Positions 32,083-49,957 of a DNA stretch of 64,000 nucleotides are shown one piece after another. How positions within the stretch are numbered: position 1 is the first letter of the stretch; the number at the start of each line of letters is the position of its first letter. The stretch spans positions 13,650 through 77,649 of the forward strand of contig JACPHU010000009.1 in NCBI GenBank assembly GCA_016188495.1, given 5' to 3'. Source of the DNA: Candidatus Uhrbacteria bacterium (lineage in GTDB: Bacteria > Patescibacteriota > Patescibacteriia > UBA9934 > GWF2-40-263). The translations under genes were made by a program, and so were the position numbers. The notes under the pieces were generated by a model, which saw only the letters and a program-made list of their open reading frames with translations, ran no database searches and was not told the origin of the DNA.

Positions 32083-34616
32083 TTTCCTTATTACAATTCG
32101 GCTTAGAAACAGATCCTCAATTGATTAAAACCGTAACAGCGTCGGCAGATTTTTCCATCCCGCCGTTTATCTTGTGGGGGTCGTTGCTGTTGGTTTTTTT
32201 GTTTTGTCTATTGTACGTATTGAGGTTTTTTATCAGACGTCTTTCGCTGGCCAGACAGGCTACGTTTCATCGTGTCACACTGCTGATTACGTTGCCAAAA
32301 TTCAGGCGCGAAGAAGAAAGTGAGAAAGGTCCTTCTAAGGATCAGGTCAAAGAAGCGATTGCTGCTGCGGAATCTTTTTTTTCCTCTCTTGGAGGTTTAA
32401 CGGTGCATCATGGTTTTAAATCGTGGCTGTTTGGACGTCATGACGAGTTTTCTTTTGAGATTGTCGTTGAGAAGAAATTGATCAAATTTTTTGTTACCGT
32501 TCCTGTCGAATTGCGTGATTTTTTGGAACAGCAATTATCGGCTGCTTATCCTGATTCGTTTACAGAAGAAGTCGAAGATTACAATATTTTTAAACCGGAC
32601 GGTGTCATTTTAGGAAGCCACCTCGTGTTGCGCCGTATCAGTTCCTTTCCGATTAAAACCTATACACAATTAGAGAAAGATCCTTTAAATACGATCACAA
32701 ACGTATTATCAAAAATTCCTGACGGAGACGGAGCCGCCTTTCAATTTCTTGTTCGGTCTTCTCAAGCAAAATGGAGAAACAGAGGAATAAAAATCGCTTC
32801 AAACATGCAACAGGGAATGAAGCTTGAAGAGGCTCTTCGTGGAAAAAAGAAAGGCAAGAGCAGTAGCTGGATGGAGTTGTCCGGCTTGAGCAGTCCCAAT
32901 AAGTCTCAAGAACCGCAGAAAGATTATCGTCTTTCTCCTTTAGAAGAACAGGTAGTCAAAGGGTTGGAAGAAAAGGCGAGTAAAGCCGGAATGGATGTGT
33001 GTATTCGGTTAGTGACTTGTTCGAAGTCAGCTGCTTCTGCACAAACTCTTTTGCAAAACATGCTCAACGTGTTTGCTCAATACAATATTTATGAGTATGG
33101 CAATTCGTTTGTAAAATCACTTCCTCATCGCAAAACGCGTTTAATTAAAGATTTTATTTATCGAGCTTTCGATGAGCAGCGAACGATCGTTCTCAACGCA
33201 GAAGAAATGGCGAGTTTATGGCACCTTCCTTTGCCTTGGACAGAGACTCCTAATATCAAATGGTTAGGATCTCGAAAAGGTCCCGCACCATCAGGGATTC
33301 CCGGACCAGAGGAAGGGGATATTGAGTTGGGTTACAACATGTTTCGCGGTATTAAAACTCCTATTTGGATGAACGCGATTGATCGTACTCGTCACATGTA
33401 CATCGTCGGAAAGTCGGGTTCTGGTAAATCTCAGCTGATTGCCAGGCTTGCGATTCAGGACATTCAGGCAGGACACGGCGTGGCCGTGGTAGAGCCTCAT
33501 GGAGATTTGGTGGAGTTGATTTTAAGGAATATTCCAAAAGAGCGGGTGGATGACGTTATTTTGTTTGATCCTTCCGATCTGGAACGACCGATGGGTCTTA
33601 ACATGCTTGAAGCCCCCACAGAGACCATGAAGGATTTTGCGGTTCAAGAAATGATTTCTGTTTTTTATAAATTGTTTCCACCGGAAATGATTGGTCCGAT
33701 GTTCGAGCACCAGATGCGCAATTTCATGCTGACTCTGATGTCCGACTTTGAAAATCCAGGGACGATTGCAGAGATCCCCCGCATGGTCACAGATAAAAAA
33801 TTTCAAGATAAGTGGCGGGCAAAATTGAAAGATCCTGTCGTTCGAAGCTTTTGGGAGGATGAAATTGATAACACCAGCGACTATCATAAATCAGAAATGA
33901 TGGGATATCTCGTTTCTAAAGTAGGACGTTTCGTGGAAAACGAGATGATGCGCAATATTATCGGCCAATCAAAGTCCAGCTTCAGTTTTCGTGAAGTGAT
34001 GGACCAGAAGAAAATTTTGCTCGTTAACCTTTCCAAGGGAAAAACAGGAGATGTAAATGCGGAACTATTAGGTTTGGTTATCGTGTCCAAGCTGCAGATG
34101 GCCGCTTTGACGCGTGCGGATATTCCAGAAGATCAACGCCATGATTTTTATCTGTATATTGACGAGTTCCAAAATTTTATTACGGATTCCATCGCAACCA
34201 TTTTGTCTGAAGCGCGTAAATATCGTTTGAATTTGATTATCGCCCATCAATACATCGGGCAGCTGGTAAAAAATAACGATACGAAAATTCGCGAAGCGGT
34301 GTTTGGAAACGTGGGAACAAACTTTGTGGCCCGTATCGGTCCTGAGGACGTAGAAACCTTAGGGAAAATTTATTCCCCCGAGTTTTCTGGATACGATCTT
34401 ATCAATTCAGACAAATTTACCTGGTACGTAAAAATGATCGTTGATAATGCCCAACAGAAACCGTTTACCTTGAACTTTACCCCTCCGCCAAAAGGCGACA
34501 CAGAGTTGGCCTCAGCCATCAAACAGCTATCGCGTCTAAAGTACGGAAGAGATCGTGCGCTGGTGGAAGCCGAAATTATGGAGCGCACTCAATTAGATGG
34601 TTCAGGGCGTTTATAG
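32079..34616 (+). CDS. TraD/VirD4/TraG-family (T4SS coupling-protein-like) P-loop ATPase with a membrane-anchored N-terminal domain of unknown function
   Basis: 845 aa with two N-terminal TMs. Walker A MYIVGKSGSGKSQLIARLA, Walker B FYLYIDEFQNF, downstream LNLIIAHQYIGQL. The first ~400 aa have no recognisable homology. Confidence 0.6.
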   Translation: MISLLQFGLETDPQLIKTVTASADFSIPPFILWGSLLLVFLFCLLYVLRFFIRRLSLARQATFHRVTLLITLPKFRREEESEKGPSKDQVKEAIAAAESFFSSLGGLTVHHGFKSWLFGRHDEFSFEIVVEKKLIKFFVTVPVELRDFLEQQLSAAYPDSFTEEVEDYNIFKPDGVILGSHLVLRRISSFPIKTYTQLEKDPLNTITNVLSKIPDGDGAAFQFLVRSSQAKWRNRGIKIASNMQQGMKLEEALRGKKKGKSSSWMELSGLSSPNKSQEPQKDYRLSPLEEQVVKGLEEKASKAGMDVCIRLVTCSKSAASAQTLLQNMLNVFAQYNIYEYGNSFVKSLPHRKTRLIKDFIYRAFDEQRTIVLNAEEMASLWHLPLPWTETPNIKWLGSRKGPAPSGIPGPEEGDIELGYNMFRGIKTPIWMNAIDRTRHMYIVGKSGSGKSQLIARLAIQDIQAGHGVAVVEPHGDLVELILRNIPKERVDDVILFDPSDLERPMGLNMLEAPTETMKDFAVQEMISVFYKLFPPEMIGPMFEHQMRNFMLTLMSDFENPGTIAEIPRMVTDKKFQDKWRAKLKDPVVRSFWEDEIDNTSDYHKSEMMGYLVSKVGRFVENEMMRNIIGQSKSSFSFREVMDQKKILLVNLSKGKTGDVNAELLGLVIVSKLQMAALTRADIPEDQRHDFYLYIDEFQNFITDSIATILSEARKYRLNLIIAHQYIGQLVKNNDTKIREAVFGNVGTNFVARIGPEDVETLGKIYSPEFSGYDLINSDKFTWYVKMIVDNAQQKPFTLNFTPPPKGDTELASAIKQLSRLKYGRDRALVEAEIMERTQLDGSGRL

Positions 34617-35472: not shown

Positions 35473-36975
35473 ATGGCAAAAGTGCTTTATCGTGTTTATC
35501 GACCATCTACGTTTGAACAGGTAAGCGGACAGGAGCATGTTGTTTTGACCATTCAAAATCAATACGCTTTCGGATCTTTAGCTCATGCCTATCTTTTTAC
35601 AGGTCCTCGGGGAGTAGGAAAAACAACGATGGCGCGCTTGATTGCGAAGCTCGTCAATTGTGAGGCTCCTCAAACAAACGAACCGTGTAACGCCTGTTCT
35701 GCCTGTCTTGCGATTATTGAGGGACATACGTTGGATATTTACGAAATTGATGCGGCTTCTCATACAGATGTCGACAATGTCCGCGAAAACATCATTCAAT
35801 CCGTTCGGTTTGTTCCAAATCAGCTAAAGAAAAAAGTGTACATTATTGACGAGGCACACATGCTTTCGTCTTCTGCGTTTAATGCTTTACTTAAAACGCT
35901 TGAAGAACCTCCTGAACACGTCTTGTTTCTTTTGGCCACTACCGAAATTCACAAAGTTCCAGAAACCATTATTAGCCGATGTCAGCGTTTTGATTTCAAG
36001 CGTCTGAGCTCCCAGGAACTGGTGAAACGAATGCAGGGGATTGTTAAAGAAGAAAACGTGGAAGTAGACGTAGAGGTTCTTGAAGAAATTGCCCGTCATA
36101 GTGGCGGATGTGCGCGCGATGCGGAAAGTTTACTCGGCCAAGTATTGGCGTTGGGCGACAAACAGATCACCCTAGATCAAGCGCGTTTAGTGTTGCCTGC
36201 GACTCAGCGAGTATTGGTAGAATCGTTTACACATGCCCTCCAAGACAAACAGGCAGCTCAGGCGATTCTGTTGTTAAATACCTATCTCGAACAAGGCGTT
36301 GATTTGGATTATTTTATTTCCGATATCATTGGATGGTTTCGAGATCGTCTGTTGGAGACGGTTTCTGTCGCCCCAATGTCTGATCACATTCCTTTTTTTC
36401 AACACGCACTTGAACAGTTATTAAGAGCTCAAAAAGAATGTGGACGAGAACAGATCCCTCAGCTTCCTATTGAGTTAGCCATCCTTAAAATTTGTGGGTT
36501 GAATTTTCACCAACAGGGGGTTGATTCAAGCCCGGTGATTTCTAAATCTCAAGATAAAACCGTCTCTATTGAAGTACCACCTGAAGCACCTCTTCCACCA
36601 AAAATAGAAGAAGCTGTTGTTTCAGAAGTGGTAAAAACAGTTTTTGATACGGTTCCTGTGTTGAGTTTGGATCAAGTGAAACAGAAGTGGCCTGAGGTGT
36701 ATGAGCAAATCAAAGCTTGTAACGCTTCCTTGCCGTTGATGATGCAATCTTGTGAAATTACCGGGCTTGACGGCGATCATGTGGAATTGGGATTCGAATA
36801 CGATTTATATGTTCAAACCGTGAATCAAGAAAAAAATCGTCTTGTGATTGAGGGGGTACTTGAACAGGTTTTAGGTAAGCGATTGCGTGTGAGAGCCATT
36901 CAGTCAAAGAATAAGCCCGAACAGGATGAAACGATACAGAGTCTTGTACAAGAATTCGGAGGAGGTCTCATTTAG
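35473..36975 (+). CDS. dnaX: DNA polymerase III subunit gamma/tau
   Basis: YRPSTFEQVSGQEHV...GPRGVGKTT (Walker A) ... zinc module CEAPQTNEPCNACSAC ... IIDEAHML ... SRCQRF. Confidence 0.92.
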   Translation: MAKVLYRVYRPSTFEQVSGQEHVVLTIQNQYAFGSLAHAYLFTGPRGVGKTTMARLIAKLVNCEAPQTNEPCNACSACLAIIEGHTLDIYEIDAASHTDVDNVRENIIQSVRFVPNQLKKKVYIIDEAHMLSSSAFNALLKTLEEPPEHVLFLLATTEIHKVPETIISRCQRFDFKRLSSQELVKRMQGIVKEENVEVDVEVLEEIARHSGGCARDAESLLGQVLALGDKQITLDQARLVLPATQRVLVESFTHALQDKQAAQAILLLNTYLEQGVDLDYFISDIIGWFRDRLLETVSVAPMSDHIPFFQHALEQLLRAQKECGREQIPQLPIELAILKICGLNFHQQGVDSSPVISKSQDKTVSIEVPPEAPLPPKIEEAVVSEVVKTVFDTVPVLSLDQVKQKWPEVYEQIKACNASLPLMMQSCEITGLDGDHVELGFEYDLYVQTVNQEKNRLVIEGVLEQVLGKRLRVRAIQSKNKPEQDETIQSLVQEFGGGLI

Positions 36976-37683: not shown

Positions 37684-37757
37684 TCCCGGATCGTCTAACG
37701 GCAGGACGACTGGTTCTGGTCCAGTTAATCGGGGTTCGAATCCCTGTCCGGGAACCA
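37684..37757 (+). tRNA. tRNA-Gln (anticodon CTG)
   Basis: U1-A72 acceptor tcccgga/tccggga, D arm gtc-taacggcag-gac, anticodon stem actgg/ccagt with loop ttCTGgt, T arm cgggg-ttcgaat-ccctg, encoded CCA. Confidence 0.85.
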
Positions 37758-39304: not shown

Positions 39305-39566
39305 TTGACATGGCTTAGATCTGACTTTTGAAGGCGCAGACCATGTCGTAGTGGAAGAGACATTCTCCCTGCAGACAAAGGGAGAGTCTCAGGAAACAAC
39401 AATCACTTATCCCTATTATCGATATGACCGAATCGTTGATGTCTGAGTCGATTTTTAGTCGGGGGACGGTTACTATGCCTTCGATCTTGTGAGCAGACAG
39501 TGGGACGAAAAGGAATAAGATATTTTCTTTTTTAATCAGATAGTCAGACGTGTTTAATCTGTCAAT

Positions 39567-39603
39567 AAAATCACCGATGTGCTATCGGTGATTTTATTTT
39601 TTT
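39567..39603. terminator. Bidirectional Rho-independent terminator
   Basis: aaaatcaccgat-gtgct-atcggtgatttt, with A-run and T-run either side. It sits downstream of the minus-strand GT gene. Confidence 0.7.
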
Positions 39604-39643: not shown

Positions 39644-40765
39644 TCACGTTATCATTCCTTCCAGAATCGGAATGATTGTATCCTGACCTGAGCCTCGTAA
39701 TAAAATGGTTTTATCATGACGAATATTTTGTTCGAATGTCGGAAGATGTTTTTCAAAGTTCTTTAATGCGTGTTTTGTAAGACCAGGAGCAGATATGCCG
39801 AATCCGCCCTTTTGAATGACGGCCGCATTCATATGTTGTTCGTACGGCGCAATCGCAATGGCATAGACGGGGATTCCAAGATACATACATTCAGACAGCA
39901 GCGAATGACCGGCGGTAGCAATCATACCGTGACAGCGTGCGAGTAGAGGTAAAAATTGTTTGTCACCATGTGGATGGATATGCCAGTTGGATTGCCGTTG
40001 CTGTCTGAAGAATGTGACCTCTGACGCTTGTACAAAAAGATGCAGATCTGTTTTTTTAATGGATTGCAAGGCTTGTACGGTTTCTTTTTGTGATTGAATA
40101 AACTTGCGCGCGGCGGAAATGTAAACAAGAAGCGATGGATTGAGACTTTTTGATCGTGCAAGTTCGCGTACCTTTTGTTTGATGATGGAAGGAAAAATTT
40201 CTACATCGTCAACAGCCTGAGGGGATCGTGTGACATGAAAAAAAGAACAAGCGATGCGTTTTGCGGCATAGGGGAAAAACATGTGTAAGCGCGCAACCTC
40301 ATCTTGATAGCTTAACCCGTGTAGGATTTTTGGAAATTGGCCGATCAGATATTTGCTTTGTTGATCGATCGTTACAAGTGGGGATTGATACAGATAAGCG
40401 TATTGTGCGCTGAGTGGTTCATAATCTGTAATCACAAGATTCGGTTTGCCAATAAATTCCTCTGCGCGTTTCATGGCCATGAGATTTGTGCGCAAGTAGG
40501 TGCTCGACTGATTGATGGGTTCTTTTGCCGCTTTCCAAAAATCCAGACCTGTTTTGGATCCGGTGAGGAAGGGGATTTCAATGCGTTCCACATGCACAGA
40601 GGCACGGTGCCGAAATTGTTTGCGATAAAATTCCTCGCTTTGCCCATGCGCAAAAATGGTGACACGACCACAGGCGGCGAAATGTTCAACAAGCGGAAGT
40701 TGACGAAATGTGTGTCCATAGCCGATTCCAGAAATGCCAAAAAGAATGTGTGGAGTTTTTTTCAT
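39644..40765 (-). CDS. Glycosyltransferase (GT1/GT28 MurG-like fold)
   Basis: Start MKKTPHILFGISGIGYGHTF (N-terminal Gly-rich loop). C-terminal donor-binding region GMIATAGHSLLSECMYLGIPVYAI. Its start overlaps the HprK-like stop (ATGA). Confidence 0.7.
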   Translation of the reverse strand: MKKTPHILFGISGIGYGHTFRQLPLVEHFAACGRVTIFAHGQSEEFYRKQFRHRASVHVERIEIPFLTGSKTGLDFWKAAKEPINQSSTYLRTNLMAMKRAEEFIGKPNLVITDYEPLSAQYAYLYQSPLVTIDQQSKYLIGQFPKILHGLSYQDEVARLHMFFPYAAKRIACSFFHVTRSPQAVDDVEIFPSIIKQKVRELARSKSLNPSLLVYISAARKFIQSQKETVQALQSIKKTDLHLFVQASEVTFFRQQRQSNWHIHPHGDKQFLPLLARCHGMIATAGHSLLSECMYLGIPVYAIAIAPYEQHMNAAVIQKGGFGISAPGLTKHALKNFEKHLPTFEQNIRHDKTILLRGSGQDTIIPILEGMIT

Positions 40766-41649
40766 AATGTTGAAATGGTTTGCGAGAGATAGGCGAGGCT
40801 GCCTTCGACGCGCACAACAGGAAGTGTTTGGATGGAGTTCCAAAGCTGTGTAATGAGAAACGATTCAATCCCTGCAGGACGTTTATCTGTGAGAATATTT
40901 CCTGCGGTTCCAATCAGTACATCCGCGTTTACGAGATCGAGGAAGAATGGAAAGAGTCGATGAAGTGCGCTCATCGGTGATAGATGTTCTGTTGATTCGA
41001 CTCCATCGTTTAGGCGCACGAACACAATGGCTCGAACCGGAACGTGTGATCGTCTCGAATATTTTTCTTGTGTCATGATGAATGCCTTGCGATTGCCATA
41101 CGCTATTTCTTTGTTCGTGCCTGGGATTGTTTGTGCATGAAGCGTCATTGTTTGTGTGCCAGCAATGGCTTCCATCGAATGGAGGGATGTCCATTCGATA
41201 ATGGTTTTGTTTCCAGCGAAGAGGCGTTTTCCTTGTTGAATGAGTTCAAATGCAATGCGGGTTTTTCCTACTCCCGAATGACCTACAAGCAAAATAGCTC
41301 CTGCGTCATCCTCGACACATGCAGCATGCACAGAAAATAGATGACGATCGAGCCATGCGCGACGTGTGAGGCTATAGAGGAGGAAATACGTATCTGGAGA
41401 AACATGATTTGTCCATGTGTCGTGAAGCACGAAAGAGTACCGACCGGTTTCCTCGAGTGCCTGTGTTTTTCTTGTTTGACGATGGGTCAATACGATATCC
41501 GCAACCTGTGTCATAGGTGCTGAAGCACACTTAAGACCTGGAAGATACGCCTGCGCAAGGACAAGATCATCCGGGTGGAAAGATTCTAAAAAATCACTTT
41601 CGAGTTTGAGAGTGAGATCGCCGGGAAGAGAAAAGAAAAGGCTCGTCAT
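40762..41649 (-). CDS. HPr kinase/phosphorylase C-terminal-domain-like P-loop protein (HprK-related kinase)
   Basis: 295 aa. P-loop LLVGHSGVGKTRIAFELIQQG resembles the HprK GDSGVGKSE motif. No N-terminal HprK regulatory domain. Confidence 0.55.
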   Translation of the reverse strand: MTSLFFSLPGDLTLKLESDFLESFHPDDLVLAQAYLPGLKCASAPMTQVADIVLTHRQTRKTQALEETGRYSFVLHDTWTNHVSPDTYFLLYSLTRRAWLDRHLFSVHAACVEDDAGAILLVGHSGVGKTRIAFELIQQGKRLFAGNKTIIEWTSLHSMEAIAGTQTMTLHAQTIPGTNKEIAYGNRKAFIMTQEKYSRRSHVPVRAIVFVRLNDGVESTEHLSPMSALHRLFPFFLDLVNADVLIGTAGNILTDKRPAGIESFLITQLWNSIQTLPVVRVEGSLAYLSQTISTL

Positions 41650-41702
41650 AGAACTTAATCTATAGGAATGTTACTCTTAGGCAGTCAGATCATCATATCA
41701 CT

Positions 41703-42899
41703 ATGAAACGAATTCTTCTCGTCAGTCCACCGTTTAGCGGCCACCTCAATGTGTTGAAGTTGCTTGCTTCTCAATATGCAGATGTCTATGATTTTTCGCT
41801 TGCTATTACGGGGTGGAAAAATATAGAACCGGATTTTTCTGGTTTTGATGGGGAAGTTGATCTTCTTGCCAAACAAGAATTAGACACAGCGGATCCAGCC
41901 ATGTGGACATTTTCGCGCATGAATGAACTGATTCCAGATTTACGCAACGTTGTGGACCGCATCCGTCCTGATTTGATCGTGTATGATTTCTTTTCTCTGG
42001 AGGGATATTGCGTTGGAAAAGAAAAGGGTATTACTGTTTGGTGTTCGATTCCTGCATTTCTTGGACCAAATGACAACCAGACATATCTTGAACACAAGTT
42101 TGCATTTTCAGAAAACCAAGAGGCTTGGAACCAATTGCAGCGCACGACAGATACGCTTCGCTCTTTGTCTCAAATCGAAATGATCTCAGATGGATTTCAT
42201 CTTCCGGGTGATGTGAATCTTGTATGGTCCTATGAATCCCTCATTCCAAAAAATTATCAAGAGGGCCGAGCAAATGCTCCGTATGTTTTTCTTGGAAGTT
42301 TGACGAAATCTTCGAATCTACGCATAGCCACAAAACGTCCGGTCGTTTATGTATCGTTTGGAACAGTGGTGATGGATAATCTTTGGAATCACCACAAAGA
42401 CATTCAAATGAATCTCCTGGCTTTTTTTCAAATGCTTGCAGAACTCTGGAGTGATGCGGAGTTCGATGTTGTGTGTGTGACACGTGGTAAACCAATTTTA
42501 CAACAAGCCCCCTCAAACTGGCGGCTTGTTGCCCATGCCAATCAATTAGAGGAACTTGCGTACGCAACCATTTTTGTGACACATGGTGGTTCCAATAGTT
42601 TTCATGAGTCGCTCGTGTCCGGTGTTCCAATGGTTGTCGTTCCTTTTTTTGGTGATCAAATTCTTGTCGCAAAACAGGTCGAAGCGCTTCAGATCGGAAC
42701 GTCGCTTGTGCAACAGGACAGTATTGATACAGGGAATGCGGGAACACAATTGAGCGCACACACGGCTGTACGCGTTGATCAGGCTGTTAAAAAAATTTTG
42801 GCCGATGTATCCGAATATAAACGTCACATCGAAATGACGGATTTACACGCGACATCGTTTCCGAAAGTCATTGAGGAATTTTTTCATCGGGAAATATAA
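41703..42899 (+). CDS. GT1-family glycosyltransferase (UDP-glycosyltransferase / MGT-like)
   Basis: Signature region HGGSNSFHESLVSGVPMVVVPFFGDQILVAKQVEALQIG, and N-terminal GHLN. Confidence 0.75.
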   Translation: MKRILLVSPPFSGHLNVLKLLASQYADVYDFSLAITGWKNIEPDFSGFDGEVDLLAKQELDTADPAMWTFSRMNELIPDLRNVVDRIRPDLIVYDFFSLEGYCVGKEKGITVWCSIPAFLGPNDNQTYLEHKFAFSENQEAWNQLQRTTDTLRSLSQIEMISDGFHLPGDVNLVWSYESLIPKNYQEGRANAPYVFLGSLTKSSNLRIATKRPVVYVSFGTVVMDNLWNHHKDIQMNLLAFFQMLAELWSDAEFDVVCVTRGKPILQQAPSNWRLVAHANQLEELAYATIFVTHGGSNSFHESLVSGVPMVVVPFFGDQILVAKQVEALQIGTSLVQQDSIDTGNAGTQLSAHTAVRVDQAVKKILADVSEYKRHIEMTDLHATSFPKVIEEFFHREI

Positions 42900-42908
42900 T
42901 CGAGATAT

Positions 42909-42944
42909 AAAAACACCCAGCGTTTGCTGGGTGTTTTTATTTTG
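42909..42944. terminator. Bidirectional Rho-independent terminator
   Basis: aaaaacacccagc-gttt-gctgggtgttttt. Confidence 0.75.
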
Positions 42945-42961
42945 GGAAAAAGAGAGGGTTT

Positions 42962-43825
42962 TTATGCAAGCAGTCCGAGTCCGACCATCCCGAGGGCTAC
43001 GGCAATGAGTATGAGAATGCGAGAAGGAGGAGTCTGTTTGCTTTTGAATAATGGACTGAATAACAATACGATGAGTGGTTGTAGGCCGCTGACGGTGCTC
43101 ACGAGTCCGGCGGATCCCAATCGAATAGCTCCCATCCGCAGGAGGCTGGCCGTAAGATCAAGAAGTTCATTCAGTACAAAGCGTTTGCGTAGGCGAGTAT
43201 TTTTTAGGGCCATTGTAATTTGACGGCGCGCAGGTGGGACAGCAAGAAGAAGTGTTATTGTGGCGATAAGGACACCAACAGACACCCAGGCAATCCCATC
43301 AAGAATAGAGGTGTGTCTGAAAATGTATTCTAAGAGAGTAAATTCAATAGCCGTTGTAAGCGAGGCGAGCAGCATCCATCCTACGGCAACAGCCGGGATG
43401 TGGTGTGAGCCGGTGGGTTGGTAGCTCGTCAAAAATGAACTTGCAATGAGGAAGATCATGGCGATGTATTCCTTGACAGCGAGTTGTTCACCCAGGAAGA
43501 GCCAGGTAGAAAAGACAACAAGAACGGGTGCGAGATTCCATAGCAGGATGACGTTTGCCGTATGTGTTTTTTCGAGAGCTTTGTAGTACGGCCAATAGAC
43601 GAACAATCCGACGGCTCCACCAAGCAGAGCAGCGACGACAATAGGGGGTGAGGGTGCGGCAATGTTGAGGAGGGGAATGAGTAACACAGGAATCGAGCCA
43701 AATAGGCCTGTGACAAACGTGAGGACATTTGGATCTTGTCGCTGACGTTCGAGGAGATCTGAATCGATAAGGTTGGTGAACCCCCAGAGAGTCGTTGCAA
43801 CGAGTGTGAGTAGAAGCCATGTCAT
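42962..43825 (-). CDS. EamA/DMT-superfamily transporter (10 TM)
   Basis: 287 aa, highly hydrophobic, with duplicated EamA-like halves. Confidence 0.7.
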   Translation of the reverse strand: MTWLLLTLVATTLWGFTNLIDSDLLERQRQDPNVLTFVTGLFGSIPVLLIPLLNIAAPSPPIVVAALLGGAVGLFVYWPYYKALEKTHTANVILLWNLAPVLVVFSTWLFLGEQLAVKEYIAMIFLIASSFLTSYQPTGSHHIPAVAVGWMLLASLTTAIEFTLLEYIFRHTSILDGIAWVSVGVLIATITLLLAVPPARRQITMALKNTRLRKRFVLNELLDLTASLLRMGAIRLGSAGLVSTVSGLQPLIVLLFSPLFKSKQTPPSRILILIAVALGMVGLGLLA

Positions 43826-44254
43826 AGTTCATACATGATAACAAAAATTACCTAGAGTTCTAGGTGATTTTTGTGGTGAGCCCAAGGAAGGCTGTCATGA
43901 ACTACCTCGAACGAGCACGCGAGCTCATGCCAGTTATGATGGGATGGAATCGCGACGTTGCAGGGTTTTTGGAGCGTCCTCGTGGCATCCAGAGCCTTGT
44001 GGTGACGTACTAATGCGACGTATTATTGGAGGCATCAATCAAAACATAAACCTATGGGAACAGAACGAAAAGACGCCTTGATCAATGTGGTGCAACATCT
44101 GCCCGCAGCAGCGCAACGTCCAGCCGATAAACCAGCAGGGACGGTCGTTACGAGTAGTGGCGAGCGTGTCACATTGGGCGAGAAGCCGAGTCACAACACC
44201 GCCATACTCTCTACTCAACAGCGCATGAACACAAAGAAGCAGGGATAATGAGAT

Positions 44255-44677
44255 ATGCAAAGCCACTTTGTGATAGACCCATCCGTAAAAGATCAATTTG
44301 TAGAACTCCGAGCGCAAGGCATGAGCTTTGCGTCGATTTCGTCGCGCCTTAACGTCTCGAAAGGTACGCTCGTCGCGTGGAGCAAGGAGTTGAAGGACGA
44401 ACTCGGTAACATGCGACAAATCCAGCTTGAAGCCATACGTGAGAAGTTCCGCATGGGCTCGCAGCGTCGCATGGAGCTATTCGTCAAGCAGTTGGATGCC
44501 GTGGAAGGTGAACTGGCCACTCGCACCCTCGACATCGTCTCAACGGAAAAACTATTCGATATGCTTGTGAAGCTCGGCCATGAGCTTAACGCGACCGATG
44601 CACCGCTTACGTTCAAGGAACAATCAAAGGAGTTCGTTCTCGACGACATCGCGTGCATGTCTGTTTGGGAAGCATAG
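44255..44677 (+). CDS. HTH DNA-binding protein (phage/ICE-type regulator or terminase-small-subunit-like)
   Basis: 140 aa with HTH QGMSFASISSRLNVSKGTLVAW. Confidence 0.5.
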   Translation: MQSHFVIDPSVKDQFVELRAQGMSFASISSRLNVSKGTLVAWSKELKDELGNMRQIQLEAIREKFRMGSQRRMELFVKQLDAVEGELATRTLDIVSTEKLFDMLVKLGHELNATDAPLTFKEQSKEFVLDDIACMSVWEA

Positions 44678-44827
44678 AAAAATTTGAACATTCCTGTACG
44701 AAAAATGACCGTCCTCGCGGCGGTTGTTTTGATATTTTGAAACGTTCATCAGATGCCAGTAAATAAAAAGAGCGCATCCGACGAGACGTAAGCCGAGTGG
44801 CTCTTGCCCCGCGCGGATGCGCGAGTG

Positions 44828-45439
44828 TCACTTGAGGTGGATCAACTCCATACCGCTCGCTTCCATGTCCGAGTCGTCGGTATGAGTGTCTCCACCCTCG
44901 ACGAGCACAGAGGAATAGTACCCATCGCCACGCCCATACGAGTCGATGAACAGCTTGTGGCCGTTCTCGAACTCGATGACGAGTGCCACGCCGTTCTGCG
45001 TCATGGCAACCACATGGCCGTTGCCAGCGAGTGCGAGTTGCTTGGACAAGAAGGCGGAGACGGCCTCCGCGTGCTGTCGTGCGGCCTCTTCGTGCCTTCG
45101 TTTCTCCTCGTCCTTCCGCCATTGCTCGTTCTTGGCCTTCGCACTCGCATTGGTCAGGGTCATGTGGACACCGACCTTCTCGACCTCGTGCCACCCGCCG
45201 CCTTCGATCTTCTTCCGCTGCTGTTTGACCATGCGCGGCCGCTTGACGATGATTTCCTCGACCTCAGGACTCCCGTGCTGGATGCTGCGGTTCTTCCCGT
45301 CCATGATGAGTCGAGACACGTCTCCACCGTCTGATGCAAGGACGAGCTCCTCGCCCTCAACGCAAGCCGAGGAGACCATCTGCCGCCCAAGAACCCATCC
45401 GCCCTTCCCGATTTCCGCAATCAACTCCTGAATGTCCAT
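44828..45439 (-). CDS. Hypothetical protein (~203 aa)
   Basis: Start MDIQELIAEI preceded by SD gaggag. Competing same-region frames have Leu/Arg-rich, low-complexity composition typical of GC-rich noise. Confidence 0.45.
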   Translation of the reverse strand: MDIQELIAEIGKGGWVLGRQMVSSACVEGEELVLASDGGDVSRLIMDGKNRSIQHGSPEVEEIIVKRPRMVKQQRKKIEGGGWHEVEKVGVHMTLTNASAKAKNEQWRKDEEKRRHEEAARQHAEAVSAFLSKQLALAGNGHVVAMTQNGVALVIEFENGHKLFIDSYGRGDGYYSSVLVEGGDTHTDDSDMEASGMELIHLK

Positions 45440-45570
45440 GATGACTCCTCGGTATATGTGTGAGAGGTGGTATGCCTGCAAGTGAAAGAAACGACTGAAA
45501 AATATACCACAAAACAGCCTTTTGTCAATGGCCGCATGGTCGTTTTTGTGATAAAATGGCCTAAAATCCT

Positions 45571-47286
45571 ATGGAACAGCCAAATACAGACATACAACGC
45601 GTTGCAGAGCTCGTAGCACGCCTCCAAGCCCGTTTTGGTGCTCAAGGCGTCGCGGATGCTGCGGGTAAGGGTGAGTCCCTTCGATACGTCATGTATGTCC
45701 GTAAGAGCACGGATACGGCCGACAAGCAGCAGCGCACCATCGGCGACCAAATCGCCTCGTGCAAGGAATACGCCGACCGCTTCGGGTTGCGTTGGACAGA
45801 GCTCATCCATGAGGAGGAGTCCGCCATGGTCTCCGATGGTCGTCCAAAGTTTCGAGCCATGCTAAACGCCATCAAGGCGGGCACGTTCGATGCCATCCTT
45901 GCATGGGCTCCAGACCGCCTTTCGCGCAACATGAAGGAAGCGGGCGAGATTATCGACATGCTCGACCGAGGCGACATCAAAGACCTCAAGTTCGCCAACG
46001 GGTTCGTATTCGCCAATGAACCGTCGGGCAAGATACTACTCGGTATCACGTTTGTCATGGCCAAGCAGTACAGCGACCAACACTCCCAAAACGTCAGGAA
46101 CGCGATTCATCGAAAGACCGCCGAAGGTAAGTGGGCAGGGGGCCGCGTTAAGCACGGCTACTACCGAAGCACCGCGCATTACCTTCTTCCCGACGGCGAG
46201 AACCATGAGCTCATCAAGGACGTCTTCCGCCTTCGTCTTGAAGGCACGCCGCAGAAGGACATCGCGGCATACCTCATCGAACGCGGCTATCCCGTCCAGA
46301 CGCCGCATACTAAGCATCGCAAGCTCGTCATCGACGACAAGTTCGTCTCGGATATCCTTCACGACGCGTTCTATGTCGGCGCCATGAAGTTCAGTAAACA
46401 ATTCGTCAACCTATTCGACAAGTACGACTTCGTGCCAGCAGTCTCGATCGACGACTTCGAGCGACTCTACAAGAGCGAGGGCGAGAAAATGGGAATCGAC
46501 CTCAAGAAAATTCTCAATCCGCGTGTACAGATCAAGGCCGCGCTCATGCAACAATTTGTTACATGCGGACGATGCGGAAAGTTCATGTCAACGGGCATTA
46601 CCAAGGGCAAATACTATTTTCGTTGTGATTCACCCAAGGCCGTCTTCCCGATGCATGGCAAGTCTACTCGTGCGAAAGTGGTACTCGACGCCTTATACGA
46701 GTTTCTGGAACATCATCCGCTCATCACCAATGCGGGCTACAAGCATTACGTCGCCGAGATGCAGCACATCCTGTCCGAGCAAAGCAAGGAAGCGGAACGG
46801 GAGTTAAAGTCGCTCGTCGCGCAACGTCAGCACGCCGAGGAGCGCATGGAGGACATGAAGGAACTTGCGCGAGGAGCAAAGGGTGACAAGGTGCTTGTGA
46901 AGGAATATCAGGCCGACATGAAGGCGAGCCTTGCAAAGGCAAAGGAACTGTCGGCACAAATTACGAAGCTCAAGATTGAACACCTCAACCCAAAGGAAGC
47001 AATCGCTACATTTGAAGAGTTCCATGAACTGTTTGCAAATCTTGCTCAACTCATACAAAAAATAGACAGCATGGCGGATTTGGATAGTATCATCAAAAAA
47101 ATCTTCATGAACGTCACGGTCACCGACCAAAAAGTCACTCAAATAACACAAAACTCCCCTTTCAGGGAGCTGTGTGTGGACGCCGATTCGGCGATGGTGA
47201 CCCTTCGGAGACTTCCTTGGAACCAATTTATGGAAGAGTTGAGGATGTGGATGCAGTTTCAGGAAATGTGTTTGGCTGAAATGTAA
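45571..47286 (+). CDS. Large serine recombinase (integrase)
   Basis: Resolvase catalytic domain YVMYVRKSTDTADKQ (nucleophilic Ser) and APDRLSRN, a recombinase domain, a Zn ribbon CGRCGKF...FRCDSP, and a C-terminal coiled coil. Confidence 0.85.
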   Translation: MEQPNTDIQRVAELVARLQARFGAQGVADAAGKGESLRYVMYVRKSTDTADKQQRTIGDQIASCKEYADRFGLRWTELIHEEESAMVSDGRPKFRAMLNAIKAGTFDAILAWAPDRLSRNMKEAGEIIDMLDRGDIKDLKFANGFVFANEPSGKILLGITFVMAKQYSDQHSQNVRNAIHRKTAEGKWAGGRVKHGYYRSTAHYLLPDGENHELIKDVFRLRLEGTPQKDIAAYLIERGYPVQTPHTKHRKLVIDDKFVSDILHDAFYVGAMKFSKQFVNLFDKYDFVPAVSIDDFERLYKSEGEKMGIDLKKILNPRVQIKAALMQQFVTCGRCGKFMSTGITKGKYYFRCDSPKAVFPMHGKSTRAKVVLDALYEFLEHHPLITNAGYKHYVAEMQHILSEQSKEAERELKSLVAQRQHAEERMEDMKELARGAKGDKVLVKEYQADMKASLAKAKELSAQITKLKIEHLNPKEAIATFEEFHELFANLAQLIQKIDSMADLDSIIKKIFMNVTVTDQKVTQITQNSPFRELCVDADSAMVTLRRLPWNQFMEELRMWMQFQEMCLAEM

Positions 47287-47436
47287 CTAATCGTGGAATT
47301 ACTGTTTGATTGTGGAGATGGCAAATTTGAGACAATTCCAATAATTGCCCCAATTCCCAACAAACTCCAAATGATTATTTTTCGACGTATAAAATCTAAG
47401 CTTGTTTTCCAATAATCTTGCCATAAGATCGTTGTT

Positions 47437-47991
47437 TTATTTGTTCTTTTCAAGAAATAAATTTCCAGTAAGAATATAAACCAAAATTATTTTTAAACTT
47501 AATCCTAAAAGGATCAACAATATTGAAAAACCAACGAGAAAAGAGATATCGTAGAACAAAATATATTGATTGATAACCATTTTTTCTTGTGTGTGTTCAC
47601 GTATAGACCAATATCCTGAGCAATTAGTCCCAAAGATTGAGCATTCAGTGATAGGGCCATCTTTAGAACTAATTTCAGAAACAAACTTAGAAAATTCTTT
47701 TGGACATTTTTCTTCAAACCAACTTCGATAAAGACTAATTTTGTTGGTAATACTTGGTTGATTAAAACTTTCAAAAATAAAACTTTCATTTTCCTTTATT
47801 TCATTTGGAATATCCTTCTCACTCAAAACACAACCTTCTTGAGCTGGAGATTTTAATGTAATTGCTTGATATCTATACTCATTATCGAATAACTTAAGAG
47901 AAGACAAAACTAATAGAAGCGATAATCCAAGATAAAAAATTTTTAATAATCGAAACCATGGTGAACTAAAAAATCCTTTTGTTGTTTCCAT
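47437..47991 (-). CDS. Hypothetical membrane protein in AT-rich cargo (~184 aa)
   Basis: Start METTKGFF. TM at the N-terminus and near the C-terminus. A 150+ codon ORF in ~28% GC DNA is unlikely by chance. Confidence 0.5.
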   Translation of the reverse strand: METTKGFFSSPWFRLLKIFYLGLSLLLVLSSLKLFDNEYRYQAITLKSPAQEGCVLSEKDIPNEIKENESFIFESFNQPSITNKISLYRSWFEEKCPKEFSKFVSEISSKDGPITECSIFGTNCSGYWSIREHTQEKMVINQYILFYDISFLVGFSILLILLGLSLKIILVYILTGNLFLEKNK

Positions 47992-48034
47992 ATTTTCATT
48001 GTATTGACCCAGATGGAATCTTTGAGAGATCACT

Positions 48035-48187
48035 ATGCCACCTTATGCACCAGATCATAATCCGATTGAACATGTTTGGAATACAGCGAAAGGGGAAACA
48101 ACAAACATTCAACAGGAAAACTTTGAAGCAATGAAAATAACTTTTCATAATTTTATTGATGGACGAAATTTCAATTATGCAATTTAA
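48035..48187 (+). pseudogene. IS630/Tc1-mariner-family transposase C-terminal remnant
   Basis: Translates to MPPYAPDHNPIEHVWNTAKGETTN...FHNFIDGRNFNYAI, the conserved PPYSPDLNPIE catalytic-E region. No upstream DDE domain. Confidence 0.7.
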
Positions 48188-48212
48188 CAGTTTGTTTTGG
48201 GATGGCTATAAA

Positions 48213-48671
48213 TTAGAAAGAGGATATCCAACATAACTCAATTTTTTCAAAAAGTTTTTGCTGATTTTGAGATGAATTCCATTTTTTCAGATTTTCAAAA
48301 AATAAATCTTCGTAATCATTACCTGCTAAAGTATTTAAAGCTTCTAAGTAAACATGTACTTCATTATAAATAGAACTACATGAGCTAGCTTCAGTGAACC
48401 TATTATCATTTACTTGATTGATAAATTCTTGTTCTACTAAATTTAAAAATTCTTTTTTAAGCTCACCTTCATTATTTAAAGAAAAATTATTAATCTGTCT
48501 GTGAAGTTCTTTATTATCCTCATCCAATATATCTGTTTTTCCATTTAAAATAACTTTCTCAGTTTCTAGTGTACCAATTTTGTTCTTCAATATTTCAATT
48601 TCAGTGCATAAGTATGCAATCATTCCAATAAAACTGATTCCAACAATAATCCACAATAAATATTTTTTCAT
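48213..48671 (-). CDS. Hypothetical protein with N-terminal TM/signal anchor and coiled coil (152 aa)
   Basis: MKKYLLWIIVGISFIGMIAYL then a heptad-like region; AT-rich. Confidence 0.45.
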   Translation of the reverse strand: MKKYLLWIIVGISFIGMIAYLCTEIEILKNKIGTLETEKVILNGKTDILDEDNKELHRQINNFSLNNEGELKKEFLNLVEQEFINQVNDNRFTEASSCSSIYNEVHVYLEALNTLAGNDYEDLFFENLKKWNSSQNQQKLFEKIELCWISSF

Positions 48672-49030
48672 ATCTTAGTTAAAAATAATTTAATCATCAT
48701 GAGAGGTTGGCAATAAAGCCCCCAAAATCATAAGTCCTAAAAAGACTAAAATTGCATCTAAAAACATATTATTTTCTTTCTTTTAAAAACACAAAGCCCT
48801 CCGCCAGCCGCAGTCTTTCGACTGCCTGTATCCATTTCTGGGTACAGCCATCCCTGGTTGCTGAACGAAGGGTCCAGTATCAGGGATGGATTTGTGCCAT
48901 GCCTTACATGTGCAAGGTTTAGGCATCTATTTTAATTGTGAGTTTAGTGTAGAGAATTGAGACAAACATGACAAGCAAATAATCAAAAATCTTTAAAATT
49001 TAAAGGATTTTTGTTAAAATATACTCATAA

Positions 49031-49783: not shown

Positions 49784-49957
49784 ACGGTTTCTTGACTATT
49801 TCTACGACATTATTTTTTTCTATTTTTTTAAAAAACAGTAGGAATTTGTAAAAAGTTTAAAAAAATTCGACATCAAAACAAATATTTAAAACTTATCACA
49901 AAAAACAGTTGCTAAAGTCGAAGTATAAAAGCTTCGATTTTTTTATTCTAAATTTTT

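What the first reader, a model, noticed from the sequence alone, without database searches (positions are those of the whole stretch)
39644..43825. Divergent glycosyltransferase - HPr-kinase-like - glycosyltransferase - DMT transporter cluster
On the minus strand there is an operon coding for an HprK C-terminal-domain-like P-loop protein (P-loop LLVGHSGVGKTRIAFELIQQG, resembling the HprK GDSGVGKSE motif) and a MurG-like GT. The two genes are translationally coupled (ATGA overlap).

Only 53 bp away, transcribed divergently, is a GT1 MGT-type UDP-glycosyltransferase (HGGSNSFHESLVSGVPMVVVPFFGDQ). An EamA/DMT exporter is convergent with it.

Stand-alone HprK-like kinases outside carbon-catabolite control are known mainly as peptide-modifying kinases, for example the precursor Ser-kinases of some lasso-peptide clusters. 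Two tailoring GTs plus an exporter suggest a small-molecule or peptide or glycolipid modification and export module, not central metabolism.

I did not find a convincing precursor peptide ORF. Only a 38-aa ORF at 43897-44013 lies nearby, and that is inside the island boundary.
Basis: partly seen in the sequence, partly recalled or inferred. Interest (0 to 1): 0.6.

Follow-up and report, generated by a model that had tools for sequence, protein, structure and literature searches.

The report
Conserved glycosyltransferase–P-loop–glycosyltransferase cassette
Three of the four flagged genes (two sugar-adding enzymes flanking an unusual phosphate-binding protein) form a self-contained, uncharacterised cassette that recurs, often fused into one protein, in ultra-small symbiotic bacteria and archaea and a few other lineages, and probably makes a phosphorylated, doubly glycosylated small molecule rather than modifying a peptide.

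Summary
All four ORFs, both quoted motifs, the ATGA overlap and the 53-bp divergent spacer are real. The window comes from a Candidatus Uhrbacteria (CPR) genome.

The conserved unit has three genes, not four:
- a GT1/UDPGT-like glycosyltransferase (GTB)
- a 295-aa P-loop protein (HPRK-like)
- a PF13528 GT-B glycosyltransferase (GTA)

HPRK-like and GTA are adjacent in all 45 informative related loci fetched. Each locus with upstream sequence also has exactly one third GT-B gene. That gene is either GTB or a distant homologue of cytosylglucuronate (CGA) synthase. Natural fusions join these proteins in several orders. The EamA exporter is absent even from relatives 71-73% identical.

The P-loop protein is not HprK/P. 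It has no HprK N-domain, it scores below all family cut-offs, and HprK's catalytic Asp-Asp is Gly-Asn here. Its whole predicted fold matches ATP-dependent PEP carboxykinase best.

I found no precursor peptide, lasso or RiPP gene, phage copy or defence-system match. Recurrent or fused accessories are nucleotide hydrolases (NUDIX, ITP/XTPase-like) and HAD phosphatases.

Best reading: a soluble pathway that adds two sugars and one phosphate to a small acceptor, possibly a nucleobase or nucleoside. The substrate is not identified. This is a good lead, not a solved system.

The parts
39644..40765 (-). GT-A: PF13528 (Glyco_trans_1_3, MJ1255-like) GT-B glycosyltransferase, 373 aa. It is the invariant partner of the P-loop protein.
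   Evidence: Pfam PF13528, E 1.5e-32. TIGR00661 scores 85.6 bits against a cut-off of 195.9. AF2 model: pLDDT 95.1. Foldseek finds a GT-B fold closest to GT1 natural-product UGTs. It lies directly downstream of the P-loop gene in all 45 informative related loci. The invariant G-x-G-H18-xx-R21, D114-Y-E116 and T284-x-G-H287..S291-E292..E309-Q310 residues fit an active inverting GT1-type enzyme that uses an NDP-sugar.
40762..41649 (-). HprK-C/PEPCK-fold P-loop protein, 295 aa, two domains, predicted phosphotransferase. It belongs to a new family.
   Evidence: PF07475 scores 30.1 bits (below the gathering score of 33.3) over residues 106-154 only. NCBIfam HprK, HprK_rel_A/B, ScmC and FomB all score 16-27 bits against cut-offs of 125-400. 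AF2 model: pLDDT 92.9, pTM 0.90. Best Foldseek matches are ATP-PEPCKs (E 8e-9, TMq about 0.6, whole length); HprK/P C-domain chains first appear at ranks 43 and 45 (TMq 0.34). The P-loop GHSGxGK(T/S) is conserved (G123, H124, G128 and K129 invariant), and HprK's 'DD' is replaced by G146-N147-K148-T149. There are 208 clusters at E<1e-30 among 1.84 billion representatives.
41650..41702 (.). 53-bp divergent intergenic region shared by the two transcription units.
   Evidence: Spacer length. Length and sequence are conserved in the closest Uhrbacteria-like loci (L043, L044, L047) and include the near-palindrome AGA(A/G)T-AAC-ATTC(T/C). The sigma-70 consensus scan found no site in this spacer.
41703..42899 (+). 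GT-B: GT1 UDPGT/MGT-like glycosyltransferase, 398 aa. It is the third member of the type-1 cassette.
   Evidence: PF00201, E 1.1e-13. TIGR01426 MGT scores 88.8 bits against a cut-off of 260. Best PDB relatives are UGT109A1 and YjiC. It sits next to HPRK-GTA in 14 fetched loci (about 10 non-redundant), and never together with the CGA-synthase-like alternative. Fusions of this protein with NTPase_I-T exist.
42962..43825 (-). EamA/DMT transporter. It is adjacent and convergent, but not part of the conserved cassette.
   Evidence: PF00892, two repeats. About 9-10 hydrophobic segments. It is absent next to the cassette in all other loci, including relatives with 71-73% identity.
39564..39598 (.). 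Terminator-like hairpin just downstream of GT-A. It probably marks the end of the HPRK-GTA transcription unit.
   Evidence: 16-pair stem scored on the + strand with a T-run; sequence. Function on the minus strand is inferred only.

Best explanation
The finding is a self-contained three-enzyme cassette carried by a Candidatus Uhrbacteria genome: GT1-type glycosyltransferase (GTB) <-53 bp-> P-loop phosphotransferase (HPRK-like) + PF13528 glycosyltransferase (GTA).

All three proteins are soluble. Because they are so often fused, they probably act in sequence, or as a complex, on one soluble acceptor. Each GT-B enzyme would add one sugar from an NDP(UDP)-sugar. The PEPCK/HprK-fold P-loop protein would carry out a phosphoryl transfer (ATP- or PPi-dependent) on the acceptor or on the first glycoside. 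The product would be a phosphorylated diglycoside.

The acceptor is most likely a small metabolite, possibly a nucleobase, nucleoside or nucleotide. In the sister version of the cassette, GTB is replaced by a homologue of cytosylglucuronate synthase, an enzyme that joins a free nucleobase to UDP-glucuronate. In addition, nucleotide hydrolases (NUDIX, ITP/XTPase-like) are repeatedly adjacent or fused to cassette proteins.

Shown: the gene set, its conservation, the fusions, the folds, the intact P-loop and the GT catalytic motifs.
Inferred: kinase activity, the order of steps, the UDP-sugar donors and the nature of the acceptor.

The neighbouring EamA transporter could export the product in this genome, but it is not part of the system.
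For: 1. Conservation: HPRK and GTA are adjacent in all 45 informative related loci, from CPR phyla, DPANN archaea, Melainabacteria/Obscuribacterales, Micavibrio and other Alphaproteobacteria. Overlapping stop/start codons are common, as in the window.
2. Third gene: every locus with upstream sequence has exactly one of GTB or the 'U390' protein, never both.
3. Rosetta-stone fusions: U390-HPRK, HPRK-GTA, U390-HPRK-GTA, HPRK-GTA-U390, PhyH-U390-HPRK-GTA (1412 aa) and NUDIX-HPRK; GTA-NTPase_I-T; GTB-NTPase_I-T and GTA-GTB-NTPase_I-T.
4. All 15 U390 proteins tested match TIGR04467 CGA synthase over their full length (best E 7e-23). BlsD/MilC couple free cytosine to UDP-glucuronate (PMC3715490).
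5. Accessory neighbours are NUDIX, NTPase_I-T, HAD and histidine phosphatases.
6. The HPRK P-loop motif GHSGxGK(T/S) is conserved, with G123, H124, G128 and K129 invariant, so phosphate or nucleotide binding is under selection. The confident model is a two-domain PEPCK-like fold. The superfamily already contains a small-molecule kinase, FomB (weak hit).
7. Both GTs resemble GT1 enzymes that glycosylate small molecules or extend sugar chains and keep the His/Asp dyad and NDP-sugar motifs.
8. The three proteins have no TM segments.
Against: - No substrate or product is identified. Nothing here tests enzyme activity.
- The window's version has GTB, not the CGA-synthase-like protein. GTB shows no match to TIGR04467, and its profile-profile similarity to U390 is not significant. 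The nucleobase idea therefore reaches the window only by analogy.
- The window has no NUDIX, NTPase_I-T, PhyH or HAD gene in its 64 kb.
- The acidic pair that HprK/P and PEPCK use in catalysis is missing (G-N-K-T instead of D-D). The protein may not be a conventional kinase. It could be a phosphorylase, a pyrophosphate-handling enzyme or a nucleotide-binding scaffold.
- Accessory genes recur in only a minority of loci.
Confidence: 0.5

Rival explanations
1. Peptide/RiPP tailoring. The HprK-like protein phosphorylates a Ser of a ribosomal peptide, as lasso-peptide kinases do, and the two GTs glycosylate that peptide.
For: There are weak P-loop-region hits to HprK-related kinase families (TIGR04352 22.5 bits, TIGR04355 20.2 bits, ScmC 19.3 bits). 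From my own knowledge, HprK-type kinases phosphorylate the C-terminal Ser of lasso peptides (paeninodin), and in pseudomycoidin the phosphate is further glycosylated.
Against: - The family scores are about ten times below their cut-offs.
- No lasso cyclase, leader peptidase, PqqD/RRE or radical-SAM gene was seen among called genes or Pfam hits in the inspected loci, apart from the faint nitroreductase-like neighbours noted in passing.
- No small ORF is conserved across lineages next to the cassette.
- The flanks differ even between close relatives.
- Fusion partners are nucleotide hydrolases and a dioxygenase, not RiPP enzymes.
Confidence: 0.07
2. Envelope glycoconjugate or glycolipid synthesis. 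The two GT-B enzymes build a di-glycosyl lipid or a wall or S-layer glycan, and the P-loop protein phosphorylates the glycan or its carrier.
For: GT-B enzymes of this general type include MurG, which appears among the fold matches at rank 37, and lipid glycosyltransferases. CPR and DPANN organisms remodel scavenged lipids (own knowledge). A DMT transporter lies next door in this window.
Against: - The same cassette occurs in bacteria and archaea, whose lipids and walls differ.
- The proteins have no TM or obvious membrane-anchoring segments.
- The closest structural relatives are small-molecule GT1 enzymes.
- The alternative partner is CGA-synthase-like.
- In the loci with Pfam-annotated genes, the flanks showed no flippase, polyprenyl-phosphate transferase or other envelope gene directly beside the cassette; a Bac_transf gene lies about 7 kb away in L005.
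- EamA is not conserved.
Confidence: 0.15
3. Xenobiotic or antibiotic inactivation. An MGT-type glycosyltransferase, a kinase and a second GT detoxify a host- or competitor-derived compound, which EamA then exports.
For: GTB's best curated family is the macrolide-GT (MGT) subfamily, with weak hits to OleI, Mgt and Rgt resistance GTs. APH-type and zeta-toxin-like kinases are neighbours in close relatives. An exporter is adjacent in the window. The taxonomic distribution is patchy and looks like horizontal transfer.
Against: - All resistance-family scores are far below their cut-offs.
- Obligate three-way linkage and head-to-tail fusion of three or four enzymes points to a sequential pathway rather than to alternative inactivation routes.
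- The PhyH, GFO/IDH/MocA, CGA-synthase-like and nucleotide-hydrolase partners fit biosynthesis better.
Confidence: 0.12
4. A bona fide HprK/P that regulates carbon metabolism through HPr.
For: The only family hits are to the HprK C-domain P-loop region.
Against: - There is no HprK N-domain.
- Scores fall below the gathering or trusted cut-offs.
- The catalytic D178/D179 equivalents are G146/N147.
- The whole fold is closer to PEPCK.
- The protein is obligately linked and fused to glycosyltransferases.
Confidence: 0.01

Closest known systems
HPr kinase/phosphorylase (HprK/P), C-terminal catalytic domain
   Same: It shares the strand-His ... Walker A segment (SVHAAC..GHSGVGKT against SMHGVL..GDSGVGKS), and the alignment continues through the next strand. 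The fold belongs to the same superfamily.
   Different: There is no HprK N-terminal domain. The Asp-Asp pair is replaced by Gly-Asn-Lys-Thr. The scores of 30.1 bits (Pfam) and 26.9 bits (TIGR00679) are below the cut-offs of 33.3 and 240. The protein is always paired or fused with glycosyltransferases.
ATP-dependent phosphoenolpyruvate carboxykinase (PckA)
   Same: It is the best whole-length structural match (E about 1e-8, TMq 0.55-0.61), covering both the N-terminal domain and the P-loop domain. The Walker A ends in GKT, as in PEPCK (own knowledge of the PEPCK motif).
   Different: The protein is about half the size (295 aa against about 530). There is no sequence-level match to the PEPCK families. 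The acidic kinase-2 pair is absent. Identity in the structural alignments is 8-13%.
HprK-related small-molecule and peptide kinases (FomB; TIGR04352/TIGR04355 HprK-related kinases A/B; ScmC; lasso-peptide Ser kinases)
   Same: These are stand-alone HprK-C-like P-loop proteins that work outside carbon-catabolite control. They set a precedent for phosphorylating a small molecule (FomB) or a peptide.
   Different: Similarity is limited to the P-loop region at 16-23 bits, against cut-offs of 125-400. None of their characteristic partner genes is present.
Cytosylglucuronate synthase (BlsD/MilC) step of peptidyl-nucleoside antibiotic pathways
   Same: In the sister (type-2) cassette the position of GTB is taken by a full-length homologue of CGA synthase (15 of 15 members). 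That enzyme joins a free nucleobase to a UDP-sugar (PMC3715490). Nucleotide hydrolases accompany both systems.
   Different: The homologues score 78 bits against a cut-off of 300, so they are not equivalogs. The window itself has a GT1/MGT-type enzyme instead. None of the later blasticidin or mildiomycin genes (radical SAM BlsE, aminotransferase, ATP-grasp) is present. No P-loop HprK-like protein is known in those pathways (own knowledge).
GT1 natural-product and UDP-glycosyltransferases (OleD/MGT, YjiC/UGT109A1, CalG1, plant UGT94)
   Same: Both window GTs have the GT-B fold, the N-terminal catalytic His, its Asp partner and the C-terminal NDP-sugar motif. These enzymes give the best PDB matches.
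   Different: Identity is 12-17% for GT-A. GTB falls below the MGT subfamily cut-off (88.8 against 260). Both belong to dedicated subfamilies tied to the P-loop protein. The more distant actinobacterial GTB homologue examined stands alone.

Membership tests
HprK/P (HPr Ser kinase/phosphorylase) | Score at or above the curated family cut-offs (PF07475 gathering score 33.3; TIGR00679 cut-off 240) | tested here: not met
   30.1 bits and 26.9 bits, covering only residues about 105-154.
HprK/P (HPr Ser kinase/phosphorylase) | N-terminal HprK domain preceding the catalytic domain | tested here: not met
   There is no Hpr_kinase_N hit. The N-terminal ~100 aa superpose on PEPCK, and only HprK C-domain chains are matched (TMq 0.34).
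HprK/P (HPr Ser kinase/phosphorylase) | Walker A GxSGxGKS/T preceded by a conserved His | tested here: met
   H108 and G123-H-S-G-V-G-K129-T are present, and the motif is conserved in the family (H108, G123, H124, G128, K129 invariant).
HprK/P (HPr Ser kinase/phosphorylase) | Catalytic Asp-Asp (L. casei D178/D179) after the next strand | tested here: not met
   The HMMER alignment places 'AGNKT' opposite 'ADDRV'. The family consensus is S-G-N-K-T.
HprK/P (HPr Ser kinase/phosphorylase) | HPr (ptsH) substrate encoded in the genome | not tested
   Only a 64-kb window was available, and it was not scanned for a ptsH homologue.
Lasso-peptide / HprK-related kinases (TIGR04352, TIGR04355, ScmC) | Family HMM score above the cut-off | tested here: not met
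   22.5, 20.2 and 19.3 bits against cut-offs of 200, 200 and 125.
Lasso-peptide / HprK-related kinases (TIGR04352, TIGR04355, ScmC) | Neighbouring precursor peptide and RiPP maturation genes | tested here: not met
   No small ORF is conserved across lineages. No lasso, RRE or radical-SAM neighbours were found.
ATP-dependent PEPCK | Two-domain PEPCK fold with a P-loop nucleotide domain | tested here: met
   Top 35 Foldseek hits, E 8e-9 to 5e-6, TMq 0.52-0.61.
ATP-dependent PEPCK | Sequence family membership, ~530-aa size, and the acidic kinase-2 / metal-binding residues | tested here: not met
   No PEPCK Pfam or NCBIfam hit. The protein is 295 aa. The DD position is G-N.
GT1 / MGT (macrolide-type UDP-glycosyltransferase), for the 41703-42899 gene | UDPGT domain, N-terminal catalytic His with Asp partner, C-terminal NDP-sugar motif | tested here: met
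   PF00201 at 51.2 bits (gathering score 19.5). H14, D95 and THGGxNS..E..PFFGDQ are invariant.
GT1 / MGT (macrolide-type UDP-glycosyltransferase), for the 41703-42899 gene | TIGR01426 MGT subfamily cut-off (260) or a resistance-GT model | tested here: not met
   88.8 bits for TIGR01426; 15-39 bits for OleI, Mgt and Rgt against cut-offs of 700-800.
MurG / GT28, for the 39644-40765 gene | Match to the murG model (TIGR01133) or the GT28 domains | tested here: not met
   GT-A hits only PF13528, TIGR00661 (85.6 bits against 195.9) and, very weakly, PseG. MurG ranks 37 in the fold search, behind GT1 enzymes.
PF13528 Glyco_trans_1_3 (MJ1255-like GT-B) | Pfam gathering score and GT-B fold | tested here: met
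   113.5 bits against a gathering score of 25, full length. The AF2 model has pLDDT 95.1 and a GT-B fold.
CGA synthase (TIGR04467) | Homology of a cassette glycosyltransferase to BlsD/MilC | tested here: inconclusive
   The type-2 partner U390 matches in 15 of 15 members over its full length, but at 78 bits against a cut-off of 300. The window's own GTB and GT-A do not match at E<=0.1.
EamA / DMT transporter | Two EamA repeats and about 10 TM helices | tested here: met
   PF00892, two stretches, 77.1 bits. About 9-10 hydrophobic segments.

The most novel reading that the evidence does not exclude
The cassette is a minimal pathway for a hexopyranosyl-nucleobase (CGA-like) phosphate or similar glycosylated nucleotide analogue. 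It would be made by genome-reduced episymbionts (CPR, DPANN) and by some Melainabacteria and Micavibrio-like bacteria, and used as a toxin, signal or salvage intermediate at the host interface. The HPRK-like protein would be the founding member of a new small-molecule phosphotransferase class of the PEPCK/HprK superfamily, one that works without the canonical Asp-Asp pair.
Probability: 0.22. Interest if true: 0.75.

Novelty: new variant of a known kind. Interest (0 to 1): 0.55.

Why it matters
CPR and DPANN genomes are tiny and are usually thought to lack specialised metabolism. A three-enzyme cassette that is kept intact, moved between phyla and domains, and repeatedly fused into single polypeptides of 650-1400 aa must make something these organisms need.

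It also defines an undescribed branch of the PEPCK/HprK P-loop superfamily with an altered active site. The pathway is compact, soluble and easy to clone, so it can be tested directly in E. coli. If the product is a glycosylated nucleobase or nucleotide, it would extend nucleoside-antibiotic-like chemistry to uncultured symbionts.

Tried and rejected
- RiPP precursor search. All-against-all comparison of 18-120-aa ORFs within 1.5 kb of the cassette in about 36 non-redundant loci found clusters only within closely related genomes, on both strands, which indicates DNA-level conservation rather than a precursor.
- Rfam on the window and on 8 related loci. There is no riboswitch or leader near the cassette. 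A conserved ~200-nt block upstream of PhyH in the Melainabacteria loci gave only weak covariation.
- Defence-system models (PADLOC). Only two very weak P-loop-region hits (E 0.003-0.008) for the HprK-like protein, nothing for the other three.
- Phage origin. Neither HPRK nor GTA was found in IMG/VR viral contigs, which argues against a phage DNA-hypermodification module.
- Sequence search of the PDB with the family profile. Only P-loop-level hits (midasin, HprK, Clp).
- Profile-profile comparison of U390 with GTB. Not significant (probability about 0.9%), although the C-terminal GT-B motifs line up.
- Literature searches (PF13528, MJ1255, Glyco_trans_1_3; HPr kinase + glycosyltransferase + Patescibacteria; HprK/Nudix/PEPCK). 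Nothing describes this cassette.
- An actinobacterial GTB homologue was checked for a known biosynthetic gene cluster. It stands alone next to GH3 and GH15 glycosidases.

Full report
**Observation**

The four ORFs exist as described:
- GT-A, 39644-40765(-), 373 aa from the ATG at 40765
- HprK-like protein, 40762-41649(-), 295 aa
- GT-B, 41703-42899(+), 398 aa
- EamA, 42962-43825(-), 287 aa

The HprK-like stop and the GT-A start overlap as ATGA. The divergent spacer is 53 bp and the GT-B/EamA convergent spacer is 62 bp.

Pfam and NCBIfam give the following:
- GT-A: PF13528 (E 1.5e-32).
- P-loop protein: a sub-threshold HprK C-domain hit (30.1 bits, gathering score 33.3, residues 106-154 only).
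- GT-B: PF00201 and the MGT subfamily (88.8 bits, cut-off 260).
- EamA: two EamA repeats.

Exact-sequence look-up places the window in a Candidatus Uhrbacteria MAG. There the P-loop protein and GT-A are annotated 'hypothetical protein' and GT-B 'glycosyltransferase family 1 protein'. Base composition across the four genes (44-49% GC) matches the rest of the window. A clearly foreign block starts just downstream at about 44 kb.

**What the conserved unit is**

The P-loop protein belongs to a small family. It has 38 clusters at 90% identity. A profile search of 1.84 billion representatives found 208 clusters at E<1e-30.

I fetched 45 informative related loci. They come from these groups:
- CPR phyla: Saccharibacteria, Peregrinibacteria, Uhrbacteria, Collierbacteria, Paceibacterota, Moranbacteria
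- DPANN archaea
- Melainabacteria/Obscuribacterales
- Micavibrio and other Alphaproteobacteria

In every one, the P-loop gene is immediately followed by a GT-A orthologue (43-51% identity), often with overlapping stop/start codons.

Every locus with upstream sequence also carries exactly one further GT-B-type gene, and there are two alternatives:
- Type 1: a GTB orthologue, as in the window. It is either divergent, with a 42-53-bp spacer, or downstream.
- Type 2: a ~390-aa protein with no Pfam domain ('U390'). It is usually preceded by a PhyH dioxygenase. In Melainabacteria the cassette is followed by a GFO/IDH/MocA oxidoreductase and another unknown protein.

The two alternatives never co-occur. 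The closest relatives of the window (71-73% identity; L043, L044, L047) keep the trio and the 53-bp spacer. In place of EamA they carry a zeta-toxin/AAA_33 kinase or other genes. EamA is therefore a neighbour, not a component.

**Fusions**

Among the family representatives there are natural fusions in many orders:
- U390-HPRK
- HPRK-GTA (at least seven clusters)
- U390-HPRK-GTA (four clusters)
- HPRK-GTA-U390
- PhyH-U390-HPRK-GTA (1412 aa, confirmed on its contig)
- NUDIX-HPRK

GT-A and GTB are each also found fused to an NTPase_I-T (ITP/XTPase-like, PF01931) domain. One Collierbacteria locus has HPRK followed by a single GTA-GTB-NTPase_I-T ORF. This is strong evidence that the three proteins work on one substrate.

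**The P-loop protein**

The family alignment shows a conserved P-loop motif GHSGxGK(T/S). G123, H124, G128 and K129 are invariant, and position 130 is mostly Thr, sometimes Ser. Further invariant residues are H108, T149, T165, R187, H230, D238, D243, D86 and R96.

A direct HMMER alignment to L. casei HprK/P places 'AGNKT' opposite 'ADDRV'. HprK's D178/D179 pair is known from the HprK/P literature to be essential. Here it is G146/N147, and the family consensus is S-G-N-K-T.

The AF2 model is confident (pLDDT 92.9, pTM 0.90). Foldseek against the PDB ranks ATP-dependent PEP carboxykinases first (E about 1e-8, TMq 0.55-0.61, whole length including the N-terminal domain). HprK/P appears only as C-domain chains at ranks 43 and 45 (TMq 0.34).

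The protein is therefore a compact two-domain member of the PEPCK/HprK superfamily. It fails the membership tests for HprK/P, for PEPCK and for the HprK-related kinase families. The conserved P-loop implies binding of a nucleotide, phosphate or pyrophosphate. Kinase activity is inferred, and the loss of the acidic pair leaves room for different chemistry.

**The glycosyltransferases**

GT-A's model (pLDDT 95.1) is a GT-B fold. It is closest to GT1 natural-product and plant UGTs, namely SgUGT94-289-3, the kitacinnamycin GT, CalG1, OleD, SpnP and LanGT2. MurG comes only at rank 37.

GT-A keeps an N-terminal G-x-G-H18-xx-R21, D114 and a C-terminal NDP-sugar motif. GTB's nearest solved relatives are the Bacillus enzymes UGT109A1 and YjiC, and it keeps H14, D95 and THGGxNS..PFFGDQ. 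Neither protein has a TM segment.

All 15 U390 proteins tested match TIGR04467, 'hydroxymethylcytosylglucuronate/cytosylglucuronate synthase', over their full length (best E 7e-23, 78 bits, cut-off 300). CGA synthase BlsD/MilC couples free cytosine to UDP-glucuronate (PMC3715490).

**Accessory genes and what was excluded**

A Pfam census of 149 flanking proteins shows heterogeneous neighbourhoods. The recurrent families are NUDIX, NTPase_I-T, HAD and histidine phosphatases, methyltransferases and APH.

Several other readings were checked and not supported:
- No small ORF is conserved across lineages.
- No RiPP or lasso genes are present.
- There is no Rfam element.
- PADLOC gave only two very weak P-loop-region hits, with no meaningful defence-system match.
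- There is no copy on viral contigs.
- The literature searches found no description of this cassette.

**Interpretation**

The best-supported reading (about 0.5) is a soluble three-enzyme pathway. It makes two glycosyl transfers from NDP-sugars and one phosphoryl transfer onto a common small acceptor.

That the acceptor is nucleobase- or nucleotide-like is a reasonable but weaker inference (about 0.2-0.3). It rests on the CGA-synthase-like alternative partner and on the nucleotide-hydrolase fusions. The window's own cassette has the GT1/MGT-type partner, and there is no NUDIX or NTPase gene within the 64 kb.

The rivals are less well supported:
- Envelope glycoconjugate synthesis (0.15).
- Xenobiotic inactivation (0.12).
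- Peptide tailoring (0.07).
- True HprK/P (0.01).

**Verdict**

The finding is not ordinary metabolism. It is an uncharacterised, mobile, frequently fused GT-P-loop-GT cassette with a new PEPCK/HprK-fold family at its centre. It is worth experimental follow-up, but its chemistry remains unknown.

Noticed in passing
window 48810-48925 (-): A LOOT RNA (Rfam RF03000) scores 74.3 bits against a gathering score of 46.4. It lies in a low-GC (28-33%) stretch.
   Followed up: no
window ~44000-50000: This block is compositionally foreign: 52-57% GC at 44-47 kb, then 28-33% GC at 47-50 kb. It carries a large serine recombinase (45571-47286; Resolvase + Recombinase + Zn_ribbon_recom) and an HTH_Tnp_1-like ORF (44255-44677). 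It is probably an integrated element that abuts the EamA gene.
   Followed up: partly
window 32079-34616 (+): An 845-aa protein with a VirD4/TraG-type type IV coupling-protein domain lies upstream of DnaX (35473-36975) and tRNA-Gln (37684-37757).
   Followed up: no
window 41650-41702, and L043/L044/L047: The 53-bp divergent spacer is conserved in length and sequence among the closest Uhrbacteria-like relatives. It contains a near-palindrome, AGAAT-AAC-ATTCT (AGAGT-AAC-ATTCC in the window), which could be a shared operator or promoter element.
   Followed up: partly
L001 ~5290-5490, and the equivalent regions in L008, L024, L030, L031, L035: A ~200-nt block in the intergenic region upstream of PhyH in the Melainabacteria type-2 operons is much more conserved than its flanks. 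It has no Rfam match and only weak covariation, so it may be a leader RNA or an operator.
   Followed up: partly
P0316, P0319, P0334, P0336, P0337, P0339, P0344, P0348, P0349 and others (GTB homologues of ~560 aa): Many GTB-subfamily proteins carry a conserved ~170-aa C-terminal extension (motifs LLFGTNxARKKYV ... LPRIVDIYHD ... MCIKGLDFF). The 9 checked have no Pfam hit beyond the GT domains, and the extensions of all ~24 show no BLAST similarity to NTPase_I-T or NUDIX. It is absent from the window protein.
   Followed up: partly
L043 888-1592 and L047 8379-9083: In the closest relatives, a zeta-toxin/AAA_33-type P-loop kinase occupies the position that EamA has in the window. From my own knowledge, this family includes UDP-GlcNAc kinases.
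   Followed up: no
L001/L002/L008/L024 upstream genes (e.g. L001 552-3914): A conserved trio sits a few kb upstream of the type-2 cassette in Melainabacteria: a nitroreductase-like protein (334 aa), an unknown 504-aa protein and an unknown ~211-aa protein. Whether it is related to the cassette is unknown.
   Followed up: no
P0414: A 595-aa GTB homologue with 33% identity is annotated in the giant virus Fadolivirus algeromassiliense as 'UDP-glycosyltransferase MGT'.
   Followed up: no
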